DNA of 62,854 nt, filler included, from Circinaria calcarea (taxonomy: Eukaryota): assembly GCA_051942165.1 (NCBI GenBank). It is 12 parts of 12 records of this genome, joined end to end, with 100 filler letters (N's around TTAATTAATTAA, not from the genome) between each part and the next. Parts side by side here need not be neighbours in the genome. Positions count along the whole stretch, not along the records: positions 10,509 to 15,660 come from JAVECS010002016.1; positions 15,761 to 20,912 come from JAVECS010002017.1; 10 more parts are not named here. One strand, given 5' to 3'. The translations under genes were made by a program, and so were the position numbers. Below, piece after piece: positions 10,187 to 33,669 of the stretch (position 1 is the first letter of the stretch; each line of letters begins with the position of its first letter). The notes below the pieces were generated by a model. The model was not told the origin of the DNA. It searched no databases and saw only the letters and a program-made list of their open reading frames with translations.

Positions 10187-10854
10187 GACGAAACCAAGAC
10201 AGCTCAGCTGTCCCGATGAGAATGGAAAAGGTTTAAAAATAAAAGTGGAACATCGAAGCTCCAAGGGGAGAAAGTGTTCGATGCAAATGTCCAGATAGTT
10301 TGGAAGTCAGAGAAGTCCAGCTTCAACGTTGAAAAGAATCGCAGCTCGAATGAAGGTTGGCAAGCACAGCTTTACCTTTGCTATACAGAAGATACAAGAA
10401 GGAGTAGANNNNNNNNNNNNNNNNNNNNNNNNNNNNNNNNNNNNNNNNNNNNTTAATTAATTAANNNNNNNNNNNNNNNNNNNNNNNNNNNNNNNNNNNN
10501 NNNNNNNNAAATTTAGATTAAGAGCTTTTTTTTCAACCTCTTGTGTAATATCTATTTCTCCATTAAGACCCTTCTCCTTAAGATGACCTTTGGGAAAATT
10601 ATTCGAAGACGGTTTTAAGCTAAACATAAGGGTGCTACTATTTAAAGGTGAAGATATAAGTGGGTGAGGTTTAGCTGGACTGCTAATACATAGTCTAATA
10701 TAATTAGATACACTAAATAATATATCTGTTCTAAAGCTAATTAAAGCTAATCTATAATAATATATATTATTATAAGCATGCAAGTTATGAATAGTTTTTT
10801 TAGACTCAGTGTAATCTTATATAAAGACAAAGGTTAAAAACCTTTAGCAAAATG

Positions 10855-11010
10855 GTCAAAATAAAGAAAACTCTTTATACCGTATTGGGGGTCACTATTT
10901 AATTTTAGATTCATTTTAAACTAGGCGAATAGCAAGTAAATACCTTAGACGGTGTACTATACCTTTACTTAAAAAAAAGGTAAGTGTCCATCTGATATAT
11001 TCTTGGTAAT
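10855..11010. other. Group I intron-like remnants abutting the truncated cox1
   Basis: Minus strand CAGATGGACAC...AAAGGTATAGTACAC resembles P7 (R/S) elements; plus strand GGCGAATAGCAAGT resembles a P/P4 element in the opposite orientation. Recognised by eye only. Confidence 0.35.
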
Positions 11011-11496
<486 letters not shown>

Positions 11497-11719
11497 CAAC
11501 TTTGTAATTTATTAACCCTATTCTAAAAGGATTAAATGGTTATTTAACCATAAATTATGGTATCTGGTTACTATTGTGTTTTACACAGTATACCTCTAAA
11601 TATATTCACGGGTTATTAAGCATTCTAACATAACAATTTCTCAACCCAAATGAGACGCCTAACCAACTTGGCTCTAACCCGTATGATTTAGAGATATATT
11701 CTAGAGTGCTGTGCTGGTG

Positions 11720-11770
11720 CAGAGAATATCCGATTCGAACGGATGTAATCAATTTTGACCAAATAAGTAT
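11720..11770 (-). tRNA. 3' fragment of a class II (probably Ser) mitochondrial tRNA; 5' half absent
   Basis: T arm ATCCG-TTCGAAT-CGGAT, acceptor 3' strand ATTCTCT followed by G, long variable arm TGGTCAA-AA-TTGATTA; no D arm or 5' acceptor strand upstream. Confidence 0.55.
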
Positions 11771-14105
11771 AGGTTTATGGAAGACTTTTTAATTTTAACT
11801 GATCTTTAAAGAAAGATCAGTTATGATTATGAGATTCTTTTTCTCTTATCTAGACTTGAAATTCACCGGTTTTCTTCTTTTAGTTAAAATAAGTTGTAAT
11901 TCTACTATGTAAAGCTGGATTATCTTTTCTTTATTTCGTTGCTATCATTATCTTGGTTATTACTAGATTTTCACCATCAATTATAAGATTTTTTAGATTT
12001 TTAGTAAAGTTCAGTCTAGCTCCAGATGTATCACTATCTTTTCCTAATGAAAAAATGAATCTACAATCTTAGATAAATCTGCATGATCATAACCTAAAAT
12101 AGCTTGTATGTTAAGGGATAATCTAAATTGAATTGGATACAAAATGTGACGTCTTGTAAAGTAAAAAATAAAAAAGTCTAAAGTAAAAGGGGGGGGGGGG
12201 AACCACCACTAACTATTATACCGTTATCCTTAAACATGCTTAATATACTTATATAGCTAATCTCTTCCAATAAATATATAGTGTGTTGACTAGTATAATC
12301 TTTAGATAAAATTTTCTTTTTAATAAATCCCTGGCAAAATCTCTTAGAATAAATTGTAACAATATTTAATTTTGCATCCTCAGATTTACTCTTATAACAA
12401 TCCATTATTGTTATATTGTAATCCTCTACAACTTTTATTCTCTCTCTAAAAAGATAGAAGTAATTCTTCTAAATCTCATTAGAGCTAATATGTAATTTGG
12501 AATTAATGGATTAGTAGGTTGATGCATATAGATACTTGCTATAGAATAGAGCTCATCCTTTAGACCTTGTGTTATTGCTGAGAGTGCAAAATATGTATTA
12601 GTTAATTTTCTATTCATTGTATTTTTCATTTTGTTCTTGTTTATATAATTTTTATTATATTTTGAAAACAGGGATGGTTTTAGAATGTTTATTACCTCTA
12701 AATTTAAACATTTTTTATGTAATAACAATTGTAGATTTAATCTATGTATTGAAGAGAACATTTCTTGTTACTTTGTGATTAATAACCTTTAGTTTAGAAT
12801 CTTTCTTTTAAAGATTGTTGTCAATTCTATTCATCATCTTTTTAAACTTCTTGTATTGTTTTCCCATTATTTTTATCTTTAAAACTTTTAATGGTTTTTC
12901 TACCCCCTGCCATTTTTTCAATGTCTTTTATTGAGTGAGTTTAGGAGTCAAATTTCATATCCTTACGTAAATTATTTTGATCTACTAAAGATAGTATTAA
13001 GCTTTGATTTAAGACGTTTACGTCCAAATTCATATTCATAGAGTTTTTCTAACTCCAAATCTCTATTATCCTTTTCATTGGAATCTCGTTCATGTTGAAT
13101 ACGTGCTTCTAATTCTTTATTAAGTTTTATATTTTCTTTAGCTATATAAGCAAGATGGAAATCATTCTTTACTCTTCATGCTAACTTATCATTTGGATCA
13201 TTTTTAAAACTATAATACTAAACCTAACCATGTTACTTTTAATTACACAAGAGATAATTGGGAAAAATGCTATTATGAGGTAAGGGTGTAGAGTTTAAAA
13301 TTGTATAAACGGTTCGATTTTACTGTGATAAATATGATAATTATTACTAATTCCACTCTAATCTAAAATGGATAGGATTGCTTCTTCAGTCCCCGCAATC
13401 TTTACTAACGGTAATATTTTTAGACCAATATAGGTGATATTCTGGTTTAGAGATAGAGTTAATCTTGAATGTATTACTACTAAAAAGTGTAAGTTTTCTT
13501 TACAACCACCACTTAATTTAGCATTAATAGATTCAGGATAATAAATATTAATCTTCACTTTGCTATTTAATATTGAACTATAATCTCCAGGAAAATTAGA
13601 TAGTGCATTATGTTTAGCATGAGTCAAGCTTAAAGAGATATTTATTGGTAAATATAACATGTGTTTAGAATAAAAATTATTACTTCGTCGAAGACGAAGA
13701 AGTTTCGAAGAATTCGCACTAAAGTTAAGAAACTTCTTAACTTTATAAGAAAAATTAAGAAAAAAGGATTCTGGAATTAAAGATAAAGATCTAAACCGTA
13801 TTAGATCAGTCTATATATAAGACTTTATCTATTATTAATTAATATTAAAAGGCTAAATTAATAGTGGAGAAAAAAAGTAAAGTTCTAAACTCTTCATTAT
13901 TTATTTTTTTTTTTTTTCTAATTTGTTTAAAGAGCTGGATATAGAATGTAGTATATCTACTCTATAAATATAGAGTGATTTATAAAAAAAAATAAATAAA
14001 AGTTATTTGACTCTCTCTCTCTCAAAAATAGATAGATTTAATACTTTTTTATTACTCTGGATGCAAAAGCATCATGTTACAGGTCTAATATTCAATTATC
14101 ATGTT

Positions 14106-15413
14106 AAAAATTTGTTATCATAAAGGCTCTTTATCCTTTATTTCCACCTTTCACAAGGTGGTTCAGACTATTTCTTCATCTTTTTATTAACTATCTAAAT
14201 TAATTGCAAAGCGATAATGAGATTAGTTAATTATGTACTTAGGTACATTACTATTCTTATTAAAAAGGCTGAGGGCTACTATGTGTATACCTAAGAGGTG
14301 TTTATTACCTGCAATCCTAAAGCTATTATGGTTACCACCTGAAAAAAAAAACCACCCAATTCTAACCATTCCTGCAATACAGGATTTATTAAAGAGTCTT
14401 TGCTATCAAGTAAATTATAACGTTTTACGTTATTATCCATGTACATAAGCAAAGCTTTAAAGAAAGCATCATAACAGCCCGAATGAAAACTTAAAAAAAA
14501 AAATTACCTTAATTAATTTAAACTAGCTAATCATGGAGAAACATGATTAACAAGAAGGTTTCCACTAATACTAAAAACAGTACCCGCTACGACTCTACAA
14601 GTATTACCAGCATCTACATCTGCTGGACAAATTTTAAAGAATGTAAATGCTGAACCTGACATAACAGTAAGTTCTGTTGTTACAGCAGTAACTGGGACAG
14701 TGGCTGGAGTTTGCGCGCATACTAGTTCCACAGTTGTTTGCGGAACTTGTGTTACTGTTACAGTCGAAACTGGTGGGTGACGTAAATTAATCATGCTACT
14801 TATCGCCGCATGATCTAAGCCCTGTTTATTAATACAAGATGCAGCTGCATCTATACTGTTAGAAGCAGACATTACGGTGTCTGCGGGTAGGGCATTACCA
14901 TGTTTAGCACATTGAAATACAGCTACCGCGACAGTAATTTTTAAAGTTTTATTCCAAGTTCACATATAATTTTATCTTTTTTTTTATGGACTCTAGCCTT
15001 TAGATTAAATTAGATAACATTTTGTCCTTAGCTAAACTTTTAATTTATTAGTTTAGTCTCTTTCACTAATATTGATTTAACAATATTAATTATTCTACAG
15101 ATATATCTTAATCTTTAAGATATATCCAATATATTTAGATAGTTAGATTAGAAAGATGTTGGGCATTAGTAAAAGGTTATTGTTAGCAATACTCACCTTC
15201 TAGTTGTTGAACGTTCTTACTTAAATTGTCAAACTTTTTAGAAGTTTTAATTAAATAAATTACAATGATGCTTAAGCAAGCTTCGCTTCAAATATACTTA
15301 TTCTCTTAGAAGAAAATAAGTATATTTGAAATTAACCCAAATATTTACCAATAGTTTATCTTCTTCTTCTTTATAATAATGAAGACAAATAAACTATGGA
15401 GGACTAACATTTA
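14106..15413 (-). ncRNA. Orphan group IA intron of the rnl mL2449 (omega/rps3-hosting) type
   Basis: Preceded by the rnl exon signature GCTACGCTAGGGAT (15427-15414); P1 pairing GGGAU/GUCCU with a U.G at the splice site; R element CGTTCAAC[A]ACTA (15213-15201); S element GAAGAAATAGTCTGAAC (about 14177-14161); P9 hairpin CCACCTT-GTGA-AAGGTGG; a degenerate 3' exon AACATGATAATT. Confidence 0.8.
14223..14965 (-). pseudogene. Intron-nested ORF (about 245 codons, code 4) resembling a secreted prepro-protein; not rps3 and not a homing endonuclease
   Basis: MWTWNKTLKITVAVAVFQCAKHGNALP..., a Thr/Val-rich segment, FKICPADVDAGNTCRVVAGTVFSISG, and KR at 14425-14420. In-frame TAA at 14515 and 14506 and a probable poly-T frameshift near 14345. 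Confidence 0.55.
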
Positions 15414-15762
15414 ATCCCTAGCGTAGCCAAGAGTAAACTTGGTAGTATATATTTCCTTATATTCTATAGTAAGGGCTATTAAAGAGTCTAAACATGCAGT
15501 ATCAATAAGTAGTGGAAATAATAGATGTCACTTAATTAGTAAATTAAACATAAGACTTATTTGCTACATGCTTGCTATATTTAATTTTGATTACCATCGC
15601 CTTAACTTTTTAAATGGATTTGTAGTGTATAGAAATATTATCTCTAAACAGACCCCACCCNNNNNNNNNNNNNNNNNNNNNNNNNNNNNNNNNNNNNNNN
15701 NNNNTTAATTAATTAANNNNNNNNNNNNNNNNNNNNNNNNNNNNNNNNNNNNNNNNNNNNTT

Positions 15763-31700: not shown

Positions 31701-33669
31701 AATATTGATTGGGTGCATCTTTCTTGAACCGAGGGTAATGCCTGAGGAAACTAGTCATCCACAAATGCTAGCGGCAGGCTGGTAGCCTACCCTAAAGTCA
31801 TTCCTCCTCGAGGAGAGCATCCTGGTTGAGTCCTCGCCACACGTAGGCACCATACTGGTAAGGCTAACAATATCATATCCATTGGTAAACAATGTCCTTT
31901 ACTGGAACTGAGGCAAGCGTACCAGGTGCTAGGTTGATTAGCGGCCCCGGGGAGTCAGGGTGTTTCAGAGGGGAGAGCAGCATTGCATGTTCCAGTCAAG
32001 CTTAACGGAGACTCGATCTGGATGCATGCGCAATCGGTTATAAAGACGAATGAGGTCTCTCGTCAAGCCCCTTTAGCGAAGATGTTTCATGGCATGTGCG
32101 CAAAATAATGAGCATGCCTCAGGCAAGGCGCAGGGGATTTGTCTGAGGAAAAGGGATGAGCGATAGATTCCAAATTCTGTAGATCCGGGATCTCCACTTT
32201 TGGTGAGGAACCGTTCGAGGTATAATGTGGATGTGCGGGTGACACAATCCCTTGCTAAAATATACTGAGATGCAAGGCTAAAACGTACGCCGTATGTAGT
32301 AGAGCACTCCGGTCATATTTTCCCAAGCTAGATGCGGTTGATATATCTAGATTCTGGTTGAATCGGTGGGACCAGGAACGGATAAATCGCCGAGTGGCAA
32401 TGCAACAGTGCATCAAGGTCCGCTGTAGTCTGTTGGATAATGGTTTGGAATTATAAGCCACCACCAAGCAGCTGGCCGCCGTTTTCTGGATTTCTGACTT
32501 GGTGAACTCGGGATATCTAGACAATCCGGGTCGCTCACTCATCGGTGTACCACATCAATGTAAGTTGGCCCCAATCCCCCCCAAAAAAATTGGCTAATTC
32601 GATTATCACGGCAGCGGTGGTTTCTATGGTTGGGAAGCAGGGCAGTAAGATCATGATGTCGAAAAGGTGGAAGCGTTGGTTGGATTAAAAAGGTATGGCA
32701 CAGGAGGCGTAGAGCCAATGAAGAGAGTTGAAAGACGAGAGAGTTTGAGAATTGCATAGGCGAACACTAATGCATACAGAAAAGATCAAAGAGTACGCTT
32801 GATCTTCTAGTCAACGGCATAGTCAAAGGGAACGGCTGGTTTACACAGGCCAGTTAGCGGGAGAATACCTACTCCTAAAAAGCTGTGAAACACAACGCTT
32901 GCCCTCATGCTCCCTTTCCCAGGCCGTTCCTCAAGTTGTGCATCCCTAGTCATGATCAGTAAATGAGTGAGGTTTCCTGATGGCATTGATAGTGGTTTTT
33001 GGGTTTATTCGGTAGCTATCATCGCGAGGCATGTGTACGAACTAGTGTCCTCTGCTGTCTCATTGGATTCGTAGATTCGCAGGAATTCCATGGCACGTGC
33101 ACAAGTTCAATGATTTTTGGTGAAACATTTCGACTTACCCGGCGGTCGCTAAGCAGGTATATGAACCACCAACTTTCCACCCAACTCTTTTCTTTTCTTC
33201 TTCAGCTCTCTTTGCCTTTTGGCTTAGATCAAGTGTAGTATCTGTTCTTTTCAGTTTAATCTCTGAAATTCTTCTACGGAAGAAATCAATGATTAATCTA
33301 ATTTTTTTCAACCGCTTAGGGACCGCTGGACTTGTCCATGTCCCTAAGCACTGTGTCACCGGCCTTACACTGCCGCTGGTTGACGCGAACCAATTTTTTT
33401 CATCATCGTCTTCAGCTTGTCTGGGATTATGAAGAAGAAATCCACCACGAGTAGTCATCCGTAGCCAATATTAGAAATGGTCATCGAATGTCTTCGAATG
33501 CAGTACACTCCCAAGTACCATCAATGGCTCAATCCAAGTGAATCATGTTGACCCAACTTGTAGCACGCATGCCTCAACAATCAGAAGTAATATTAGCCAA
33601 AGTCTTTACCACTTTTGTAATACGATCCGAGCATTGCAATTGATCTATCCTAGTTGTTAAGCAGCCATC

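What the first reader, a model, noticed from the sequence alone, without database searches (positions are those of the whole stretch)
14106..15427. Orphan mL2449-type group I intron carrying a secreted/preprotoxin-like ORF instead of rps3
Seen: 14 nt of rnl exon (GCTACGCTAGGGAT), an intact P1, R and S core elements and P9 hairpins, but no rRNA on either side. Between R and S is an ORF (14965-14223) written in the mitochondrial code (codon 2 is TGA). It has a signal-peptide-like start (MWTWNKTLKITVAVAVFQCAKHGNA|LP), a Cys pair followed by a hydrophobic stretch (FKICPADVDAGNTCRVVAGTVFSISG) and a KR site. Established: in many Pezizomycotina this intron hosts rps3, sometimes fused to a homing endonuclease, in the P8 loop. 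Inference: the intron scaffold has been duplicated out of rnl and reused as a cassette for a foreign gene whose layout recalls Kex2-processed killer-toxin precursors. That would be unexpected cargo for mtDNA and suggests a nuclear, plasmid or viral gene captured by the mitochondrion. This copy is damaged (two TAA, one homopolymer frameshift, and G>A at 15205 in the P7 guanosine-binding position), so an intact parent copy should be sought.
Basis: partly seen in the sequence, partly recalled or inferred. Interest (0 to 1): 0.78.

Follow-up and report, generated by a model that had tools for sequence, protein, structure and literature searches.

The report
Dead mitochondrial intron copy, orphan gene
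A broken spare copy of a fungal mitochondrial self-splicing intron carries a small gene of no known family where a ribosomal protein gene normally sits; nothing supports it being a captured toxin, but its sister copies hint, unproven, at an rRNA gene split in two.

Summary
The orphan intron is real: a 1,308-nt copy of the mL2449 rnl group I intron (15413-14106; model built from outgroups, 164 bits) with 14-nt exon remnants, no rRNA, and two lethal lesions (G-binding G>A at 15205, terminal G>T at 14106). The cargo was misread. The ORF is intact at 150 codons (14965-14513). Its stop is shared by a second copy (C507) and an intact public homolog. The KR site and frameshift lie beyond it in duplicated intergenic DNA. 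It has mitochondrial codon bias, conserved TGA codons, dN/dS 0.87, no dibasic site and no family, structure or distant-homolog hit, so the toxin reading is unsupported. In two biocrust RNA libraries (one study) the same ORF lies outside the intron and the intron holds rps3. Best reading: resident mitochondrial DNA recombined into L8 of a duplicated intron. Side lead: in this assembly the rnl 5' half (C507) and 3' half with rps3 (C1450) each border a whole intron copy with complementary lesions, as trans-splicing would need. But cox1 is also broken up in the assembly, so a mis-join or an isoform is likelier.

The parts
15428..15660 (-). Non-rRNA 5' flank ('X'); homologous to the flank of the rps3-bearing copy on C1450 apart from a ~175-nt insert
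   Evidence: joined to the intron 5' half in contigs of 4 of 4 runs laid
15414..15427 (-). 14-nt remnant of the rnl exon before position 2449
   Evidence: identical to the true exon end on C507; matches the exon end of the 40 outgroup loci, with one C/T change in some
14106..15413 (-). Whole orphan copy of the mL2449 group I intron, 1,308 nt
15152..15418 (-). 5' core: P1 (15418/15404), P2 (15399/15350), P3 (15340/15164), P4 (15331/15291), P6 (15286/15213), P7 5' strand (15205), P8 5' strand (15158)
   Evidence: helix check; covariation in 9 outgroups; CM 164.3 bits
15205..15205 (-). G-binding-site G changed to A (G in 22 of 22 outgroups, C507, C1450)
14240..14989 (-). ~750-nt cassette in L8 in place of rps3; found outside the intron, with another upstream neighbour, in contigs of runs X1 and X3
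   Evidence: tables 7 and 8
14513..14965 (-). Intact 150-codon orphan ORF (table 4; TGA at codons 2 and 145), Val/Ala/Thr-rich, 5 Cys, no Tyr, no dibasic site
14244..14440 (-).
14106..14214 (-). 3' core: P8 extension (14200), P8 3' strand (14183), P7 3' strand (14170), P9 (14161/14150)
14106..14106 (-). Terminal (omega) G changed to T (G in 22 of 22 outgroups, C507, C1450)
14092..14105 (-). Decayed 14-nt remnant of the rnl 3' exon
13498..14091 (-). Non-rRNA 3' flank ('Y'), shared at ~92% with the C507 copy; joined to the intron 3' end in a contig of run X6

Best explanation
A splicing-dead duplicate of the mL2449 rnl group I intron in a repeat-rich Pezizomycotina mitochondrial genome. Shown: the whole intron with 14 nt of each exon sits between non-rRNA flanks; it has lost both guanosines needed for splicing; a ~750-nt cassette with a 150-codon ORF occupies L8 where rps3 normally lies. 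Inferred: (1) the intron was first copied with rps3 to this site, the layout that contigs of relatives suggest; (2) a resident free-standing mitochondrial ORF then recombined into L8 at a 5-nt microhomology just upstream of the rps3 start and displaced rps3; (3) the region was duplicated again, giving the C507 copy, now with an in-frame stop. The ORF is a long-resident mitochondrial orphan that only the mitochondrial ribosome can read. The window copy rides as an unspliced passenger under relaxed selection. If a product is made, it is a small beta-rich protein that stays in the organelle and is not a secreted toxin.
For: Intron identity and lesions. Contig C2016 shares an exact 141-nt end with the cox3/nad6 contig C956, in a graph of mitochondrial contigs full of gene-fragment duplicates. 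Substitutions versus C507 show no RIP-like bias: 74 transversions, 60 transitions, symmetric. Same start and stop in window, C507 and P0003. GC by codon position 0.50/0.49/0.19, and 4 of 5000 base shuffles of the ORF are stop-free. dN/dS window versus C507 0.87, not different from 1 (p 0.76); versus the X1/X3 alleles 10 replacement and 4 silent changes. In X1 and X3 the ORF contigs continue upstream into unrelated DNA, while in X1 and X6 the intron's L8 runs into an rps3-sized insert (1,489 nt in X1), with an rps3-like start in X3. 0 of 40 outgroup introns hold the ORF and 36 of 40 hold rps3.
Against: The intron-ORF junction is seen only in this assembly (two contigs, 86% alike, with different junction letters). 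The order of events rests on short contigs of 4 of 18 listed runs, with truncated tables; X1 and X3 are one study. dN/dS rests on two or three sequences, one of them broken, so purifying selection on the intact lineage is not excluded: its private changes are 4 replacement (mostly conservative) to 3 silent. The ultimate origin of the ORF is unknown, and its N-terminus does resemble a signal peptide by eye.
Confidence: 0.62

Rival explanations
1. Captured killer-toxin or other secreted-protein gene of nuclear or viral origin.
For: Basic-hydrophobic N-terminus with small residues at -3/-1 (G23, A25) kept in all three sequences; four invariant Cys. Hydropathy peak 2.2 over residues 8-16.
Against: No dibasic site in the 150 aa; KR lies past two stops. 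TGA at codons 2 and 145 blocks cytosolic translation, and mitochondrial translation has no route to the ER (established knowledge). An equal hydropathy peak lies at 125-133, and C507 has a Lys in the h-region. No hit in Pfam, NCBIfam, PHROGs, PDB, plasmids or viral contigs; only P0002 among 5.8 billion clusters; and in the representatives only two repeat-summed artefacts besides P0002.
Confidence: 0.05
2. The ORF came from an integrated linear mitochondrial plasmid (origin only; otherwise as the best explanation).
For: The same mitogenome holds an organellar DNA polymerase B piece (PF03175, E 2e-76) and RNA-polymerase-like frames (recognised by eye); AT-rich third positions fit.
Against: No plasmid gene lies next to either copy, and the neighbours in X3 are ordinary mitochondrial spacers. 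No match in PLSDB, which holds mostly bacterial plasmids, so this is weak.
Confidence: 0.13
3. The duplication matters because rnl is truly split: the 5' half (C507) and the 3' half with rps3 (C1450) are transcribed apart and joined by trans-splicing through P7/P8, with the break in L8. The window copy is a dead by-product of the same rearrangements.
For: Only one rnl 5' half and one 3' half of this mitogenome are found, on different contigs, each bordered by a whole intron copy. C507's 5' half scores best on the model (183.6 bits, no broken pair), while C1450's has broken P2 and P4 pairs. C1450's 3' part has 0 deviations at 72 conserved columns and C507's has P8 lesions. The C507-5' x C1450-3' P8 duplex is -20.4 kcal/mol versus -14.9 and -17.1 in cis. 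The X-intron junction recurs in 4 of 4 runs. [quoted passage not shown]
Against: One crossover in the 50-nt identical block of L8 between a normal gene and a decayed orphan gives the same pattern, whether by recombination or by mis-assembly. cox1 is likewise not contiguous in this assembly, at a place where no intron was detected, and each of the four copies of its shared stretch has replacements. Several contig ends match the inside of other contigs. 40 of 40 outgroup loci have the intron joined to the rnl 5' exon. No rnl-linked copy of this intron type was visible in X1 or X3.
Confidence: 0.2
4. The window contig is a nuclear copy of mitochondrial DNA (NUMT) decaying in the nucleus.
For: Broken cox1 piece on the same contig and two catalytic lesions.
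Against: No nuclear flank on the 5,152-nt contig; exact 141-nt end shared with a mitochondrial contig; no RIP signature; flank Y is 99% identical in independent libraries.
Confidence: 0.07

Closest known systems
mL2449 (rnl-2450, U11) group IA intron carrying rps3 in Pezizomycotina (PMC5626475, PMC10448965; passages read)
   Same: Same insertion-site exon, same P1-P9 core, cargo in L8 starting at the same place as rps3.
   Different: Outside rnl; G-binding G and terminal G lost; cargo is a 150-aa orphan, not rps3 or an rps3-endonuclease fusion.
Free-standing rps3 in Dothideomycetes, some Leotiomycetes and Lecanoromycetes (PMC5626475, passage read)
   Same: rps3 is moved out of an rnl context; contigs of relatives suggest X-intron(rps3)-Y.
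   Different: Here the whole ribozyme scaffold and 14 nt of each exon moved along, and in the window the cargo was then replaced.
Non-endonuclease cargo in fungal organellar introns (rps3, aminotransferases, N-acetyltransferases; PMC8393795, passage read)
   Same: A group I intron loop hosting a gene unrelated to homing.
   Different: The cargo has no family, and the host intron cannot splice.
Trans-spliced group I introns (Prasinoderma rnl; Gigaspora, Trichoplax, Helicosporidium cox1; PMC3873408, passages read)
   Same: For C507/C1450 only: gene halves on separate loci, best pairing across P7/P8, break in L8 where the ORF lies.
   Different: Each half here keeps a whole, lesioned intron copy rather than a half-intron; no RNA evidence; may be an assembly or isoform effect.
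Kex2-processed yeast killer preprotoxins K1/K2/K28/Klus and Ustilago KP toxins (features recalled, not fetched)
   Same: A hydrophobic N-terminal stretch and several Cys.
   Different: No dibasic site, no alpha/beta layout, mitochondrial code, no sequence or profile match.

Membership tests
mL2449 group I intron | Insertion-site exon sequence on both sides | tested here: met
   14-nt remnants of both exons, 3' one decayed
mL2449 group I intron | P1, P3, P4, P6, P7, P8, P9 core | tested here: met
   CM from 9 outgroups 164.3 bits, E 1e-41
mL2449 group I intron | G-binding pair in P7 and terminal G | tested here: not met
   A at 15205, T at 14106; G in 22 of 22 outgroups
mL2449 group I intron | Lies within rnl | tested here: not met
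   No LSU rRNA in the window; flanks are intergenic
mL2449 group I intron | rps3 (or rps3-endonuclease) in L8 | tested here: not met
   No Pfam hit for the ORF; VAR1 hit only on C1450
mL2449 group I intron | Subgroup IA by curated subgroup models (RNAweasel/GISSD) | not testable with these tools
   Rfam's general model misses even the rps3 copy; subgroup label taken from PMC10448965
Kex2-processed killer preprotoxin | Dibasic Kex2 site(s) inside the ORF | tested here: not met
   None in 150 aa; KR lies past two stops
Kex2-processed killer preprotoxin | Cleavable ER signal peptide | tested here: inconclusive
   No SignalP; hydropathy 2.2 over 9 residues, matched elsewhere in the protein
Kex2-processed killer preprotoxin | Readable by cytosolic ribosomes | tested here: not met
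   TGA at codons 2 and 145 in window and C507
Kex2-processed killer preprotoxin | Sequence or fold match to a toxin family | tested here: inconclusive
   No sequence or profile hit; fold model too poor to test (pLDDT 37.8)
Trans-spliced group I intron (C507/C1450 pair) | Exons on separate loci, halves able to pair at P7/P8 | tested here: met
   In this assembly only
Trans-spliced group I intron (C507/C1450 pair) | No cis copy of the gene; joined RNA shown | not testable with these tools
   No raw reads of this organism were offered; assembly layout unreliable

The most novel reading that the evidence does not exclude
In this fungus the mitochondrial large rRNA gene is split at the rps3 intron, and mature rRNA is made by trans-splicing between two whole intron paralogs that have each kept only one working half (C507 5' half, C1450 3' half with rps3). 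The orphan-ORF cassette and the dead window copy are products of the duplications that caused the split.
Probability: 0.2. Interest if true: 0.75.

Novelty: new variant of a known kind. Interest (0 to 1): 0.38.

Why it matters
As it stands it is a clear case of how rps3 can leave rnl together with its ribozyme scaffold, and how the L8 slot can then be refilled by unrelated mitochondrial DNA. This is of interest to fungal mitogenome specialists but is built of known parts. If the split rnl proved real, it would show a cis-to-trans intermediate (whole duplicated introns with complementary decay) in an ascomycete rRNA gene. I found no such report in the held library, which lacks most subscription journals. 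One PCR and one RT-PCR would test it.

Tried and rejected
Extended ORF to 14223: rejected; first stop shared by three sequences. Opposite-strand frame 14517-14966 is also stop-free, because the ORF has no TAN codons and the two frames share third positions; it has no start codon and no homolog or family hit. Representative hits P0004 and P0005 (choice-of-anchor D repeats): repeat-summed artefacts, best single domain under 10 bits; 3 of 2000 shuffles beat the ORF on a profile of P0005's repeats. GA phage coat protein, E 0.43 with a 3-sequence profile: chance level. AlphaFold2 single-sequence model pLDDT 37.8, Foldseek on PDB 0 hits at E 0.001: uninformative. Longer-protein search with the 3-sequence alignment: none of 7999 candidates. 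Viral contigs: 0 hits for the splice-site pattern, 0 confirmed loci for the ORF. Rfam: no group I hit. RIP/NUMT signature: none. No ORF cover in contigs of DNA runs X5 and X6: a hole, not evidence. No language-model atlas result is available for this protein. The scan's earlier notes gave nothing by place or by sequence.

Full report
Setting. The window is a string of ~5.15-kb contigs joined by N spacers. The finding lies on contig C2016 (window 10509-15660), which is AT-rich amid ~48% GC nuclear contigs and carries a broken cox1 5' piece. C2016 shares an exact 141-nt end with C956, which holds nad6 and cox3, and many of the mitochondrial contigs fetched join by exact 141-nt overlaps. They form one repeat-rich mitogenome with many gene-fragment duplicates and plasmid-type polymerase pieces. 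A second, more distant mitogenome (74-89% alike) is also in the assembly.

The intron. From 15413 to 14106 (minus strand) lies a whole mL2449-type intron with 14 nt of each rnl exon and no rRNA beyond. I located P1, P2, P3, P4, P6, P7, P8 and P9 by direct pairing. On 9 outgroup introns the 5' helices pair in 95% of cells, against 34-55% when slid, with 4 pairs changed on both sides (the structure was drawn on one of these rows, so the slide control leans in its favour). A model built only from those outgroups scores C507 183.6, C1450 169.0 and the window 164.3 bits. Rfam gives no group I hit on any copy. The window copy has A for the G-binding G (15205) and T for the terminal G (14106); 22 of 22 distinct outgroup introns with both ends in view keep both (24 of 40 loci had both ends, 2 duplicates dropped). 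By established group I chemistry it cannot splice.

The ORF. Under table 4 it runs 14965-14513, 150 aa, without a break. The C507 copy (83% DNA over the cassette, 69% protein) starts and stops at the same codons and has one in-frame TAG at codon 67. The public protein P0003 is intact, 150 aa and 93% identical. So the first TAA is the true stop. The frame looks gene-born: GC 0.50/0.49/0.19 by codon position, 4 of 5000 shuffles stop-free. It does not look strongly constrained now: dN/dS 0.87 against C507 (p 0.76), and 10 replacement to 4 silent changes against the X1/X3 alleles. Reading those with C507 as outgroup, 6 replacements and 1 silent change fall on the window copy, including loss of a Cys (my tally; small numbers). 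Searches found only its own cluster: 1 of 60 candidates; 3 hits among 1.84 billion representatives, two of them repeat artefacts; none of 7999 longer candidates; no Pfam, NCBIfam, PHROGs, PDB, plasmid or viral-contig match. The fold model is unusable. A signal peptide could not be scored; the hydropathy evidence is ambiguous. TGA at codons 2 and 145 and the lack of any dibasic site argue against a Kex2-type preprotoxin. The toxin features compared are recalled, not fetched.

Relatives. Of 18 runs listed I laid 4: two biocrust RNA libraries of one study and two DNA sets, all as contigs, with tables truncated. In all 4, one contig joins flank X to the intron 5' half. In X1 and X6 the L8 region runs into an rps3-sized insert (1,489 nt in X1) and returns to the 3' core; X3's loose end there resembles the rps3 start of C1450. 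In X6 the 3' core runs on into flank Y. The ORF appears in X1 and X3 on contigs whose upstream 71 and 64 nt do not match the intron. So in those relatives the ORF is outside the intron and the intron at this site holds rps3. Contigs cannot show that the ORF is transcribed. Among JGI contigs, 40 of 40 loci with the same 5' splice site follow the rnl 5' exon; 36 of 40 hit rps3 (three of the other four end within 350 nt) and 0 of 40 hit the ORF.

Mechanism. Shown: duplicate intron, dead catalytic sites, cassette in L8, intact orphan ORF. Inferred: relocation of intron plus rps3 with 14-nt exon tags; replacement of rps3 by a resident cassette at a 5-nt microhomology (14989-14985, shared by the rps3 leader and the free cassette); a further segmental duplication; relaxed selection on the window copy. 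Confidence about 0.6.

Side lead: split rnl. The assembly holds one rnl 5' half of this mitogenome (C507), followed by an intron copy with the ORF and flank Y, and one 3' half (C1450), preceded by flank X and an intron copy with the only rps3 found. Lesions are complementary. C1450's 5' part has 7 deviations at 109 conserved columns, including broken P2 and P4 pairs, and its 3' part 0 of 72. C507 has 3 of 109 and 5 of 72, including the first P8 pair. The cross duplex is the strongest among copies that keep the G-binding G. That fits trans-splicing with a break in L8, the usual site (PMC3873408). Against it: a single crossover in the 50-nt identical block of L8 explains the same pattern. cox1, which cannot work without its first 69 residues (established), is also not contiguous here, with no intron detected at the break and replacements in all four copies of the shared stretch. 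nad1's intact head and tail lie on different contigs, and several contig ends match inside other contigs. I put a fixed split with trans-splicing at 0.2; mis-assembly or coexisting isoforms are likelier.

Literature. Passages read by term search: PMC5626475 (rps3 in mL2449 or free-standing), PMC8393795 (non-endonuclease cargo, trans-splicing), PMC3873408 (L8 breakpoints, trans-spliced rnl in an alga), PMC10448965 (rnl-2450 group IA with rps3). Abstract and outline only: PMC7315562. Listings only; none of the titles or abstract openings described an orphan mL2449 copy with replaced cargo, a toxin-like ORF in one, or a trans-spliced ascomycete rnl. The library lacks most subscription papers, and no supplements were opened. 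[quoted passage not shown] Earlier scan notes on other genomes describe orphan ORFs as intron cargo; unchecked.

Verdict. Observation partly confirmed, toxin reading not supported. New variant of a known kind; interest 0.38, carried partly by the testable split-rnl lead.

Noticed in passing
L011 5676-6810 (C507) and L012 1321-3904 (C1450): rnl 5' and 3' halves lie on different contigs, each beside a whole intron copy with complementary lesions; possible trans-splicing, isoforms or mis-assembly.
   Followed up: partly
window 11400-11010; L049, L018, L051, L014: cox1 occurs only as overlapping pieces (5' pieces on C2016, C2269, C4048; the rest on C671), each with replacements in the shared 195-nt stretch; no contiguous gene in the assembly.
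   Followed up: partly
L053, L014, L104, L103: nad1 intact head (C2173/C3104) and intact tail (C2587) lie on different contigs, with truncated duplicates between.
   Followed up: partly
L010 1400-7200 (C507): About 6 kb of 35-47% GC DNA inside a mitochondrial contig, with two frames of 168 and 241 aa without Pfam family and two diverged repeats; looks foreign to the mitogenome.
   Followed up: no
L056 1138-6800, L058 7576-8391, L047 110-1297: Pieces of plasmid-type DNA polymerase B (PF03175 on L056) and RNA-polymerase-like frames integrated in the mitogenome.
   Followed up: partly
window 14517-14966 (+): The opposite-strand frame sharing third positions with the ORF is also stop-free for 150 codons; no start codon, no homologs.
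   Followed up: yes
L055 3650-3665: A 16-nt motif about 20 nt upstream of a 290-aa free ORF on C1378 matches the upstream loose end of the free ORF cassette in run X3; only hit in 109 kb searched; possibly a shared leader.
   Followed up: partly
L029, L057, L101, L102, L106, L107: A second, more distant fungal mitogenome (74-89% alike) is present in the assembly.
   Followed up: no
L011 4042-4805: Group II intron in the rnl 5' half (Rfam Intron_gpII 60.8 bits).
   Followed up: no
window 13358-13741 (-): A 100-127-aa frame in flank Y is kept in C507 and has a 72% paralog on C3104; no family.
   Followed up: partly
window 33202-33394 (+): U2 snRNA on an unrelated nuclear contig.
   Followed up: no
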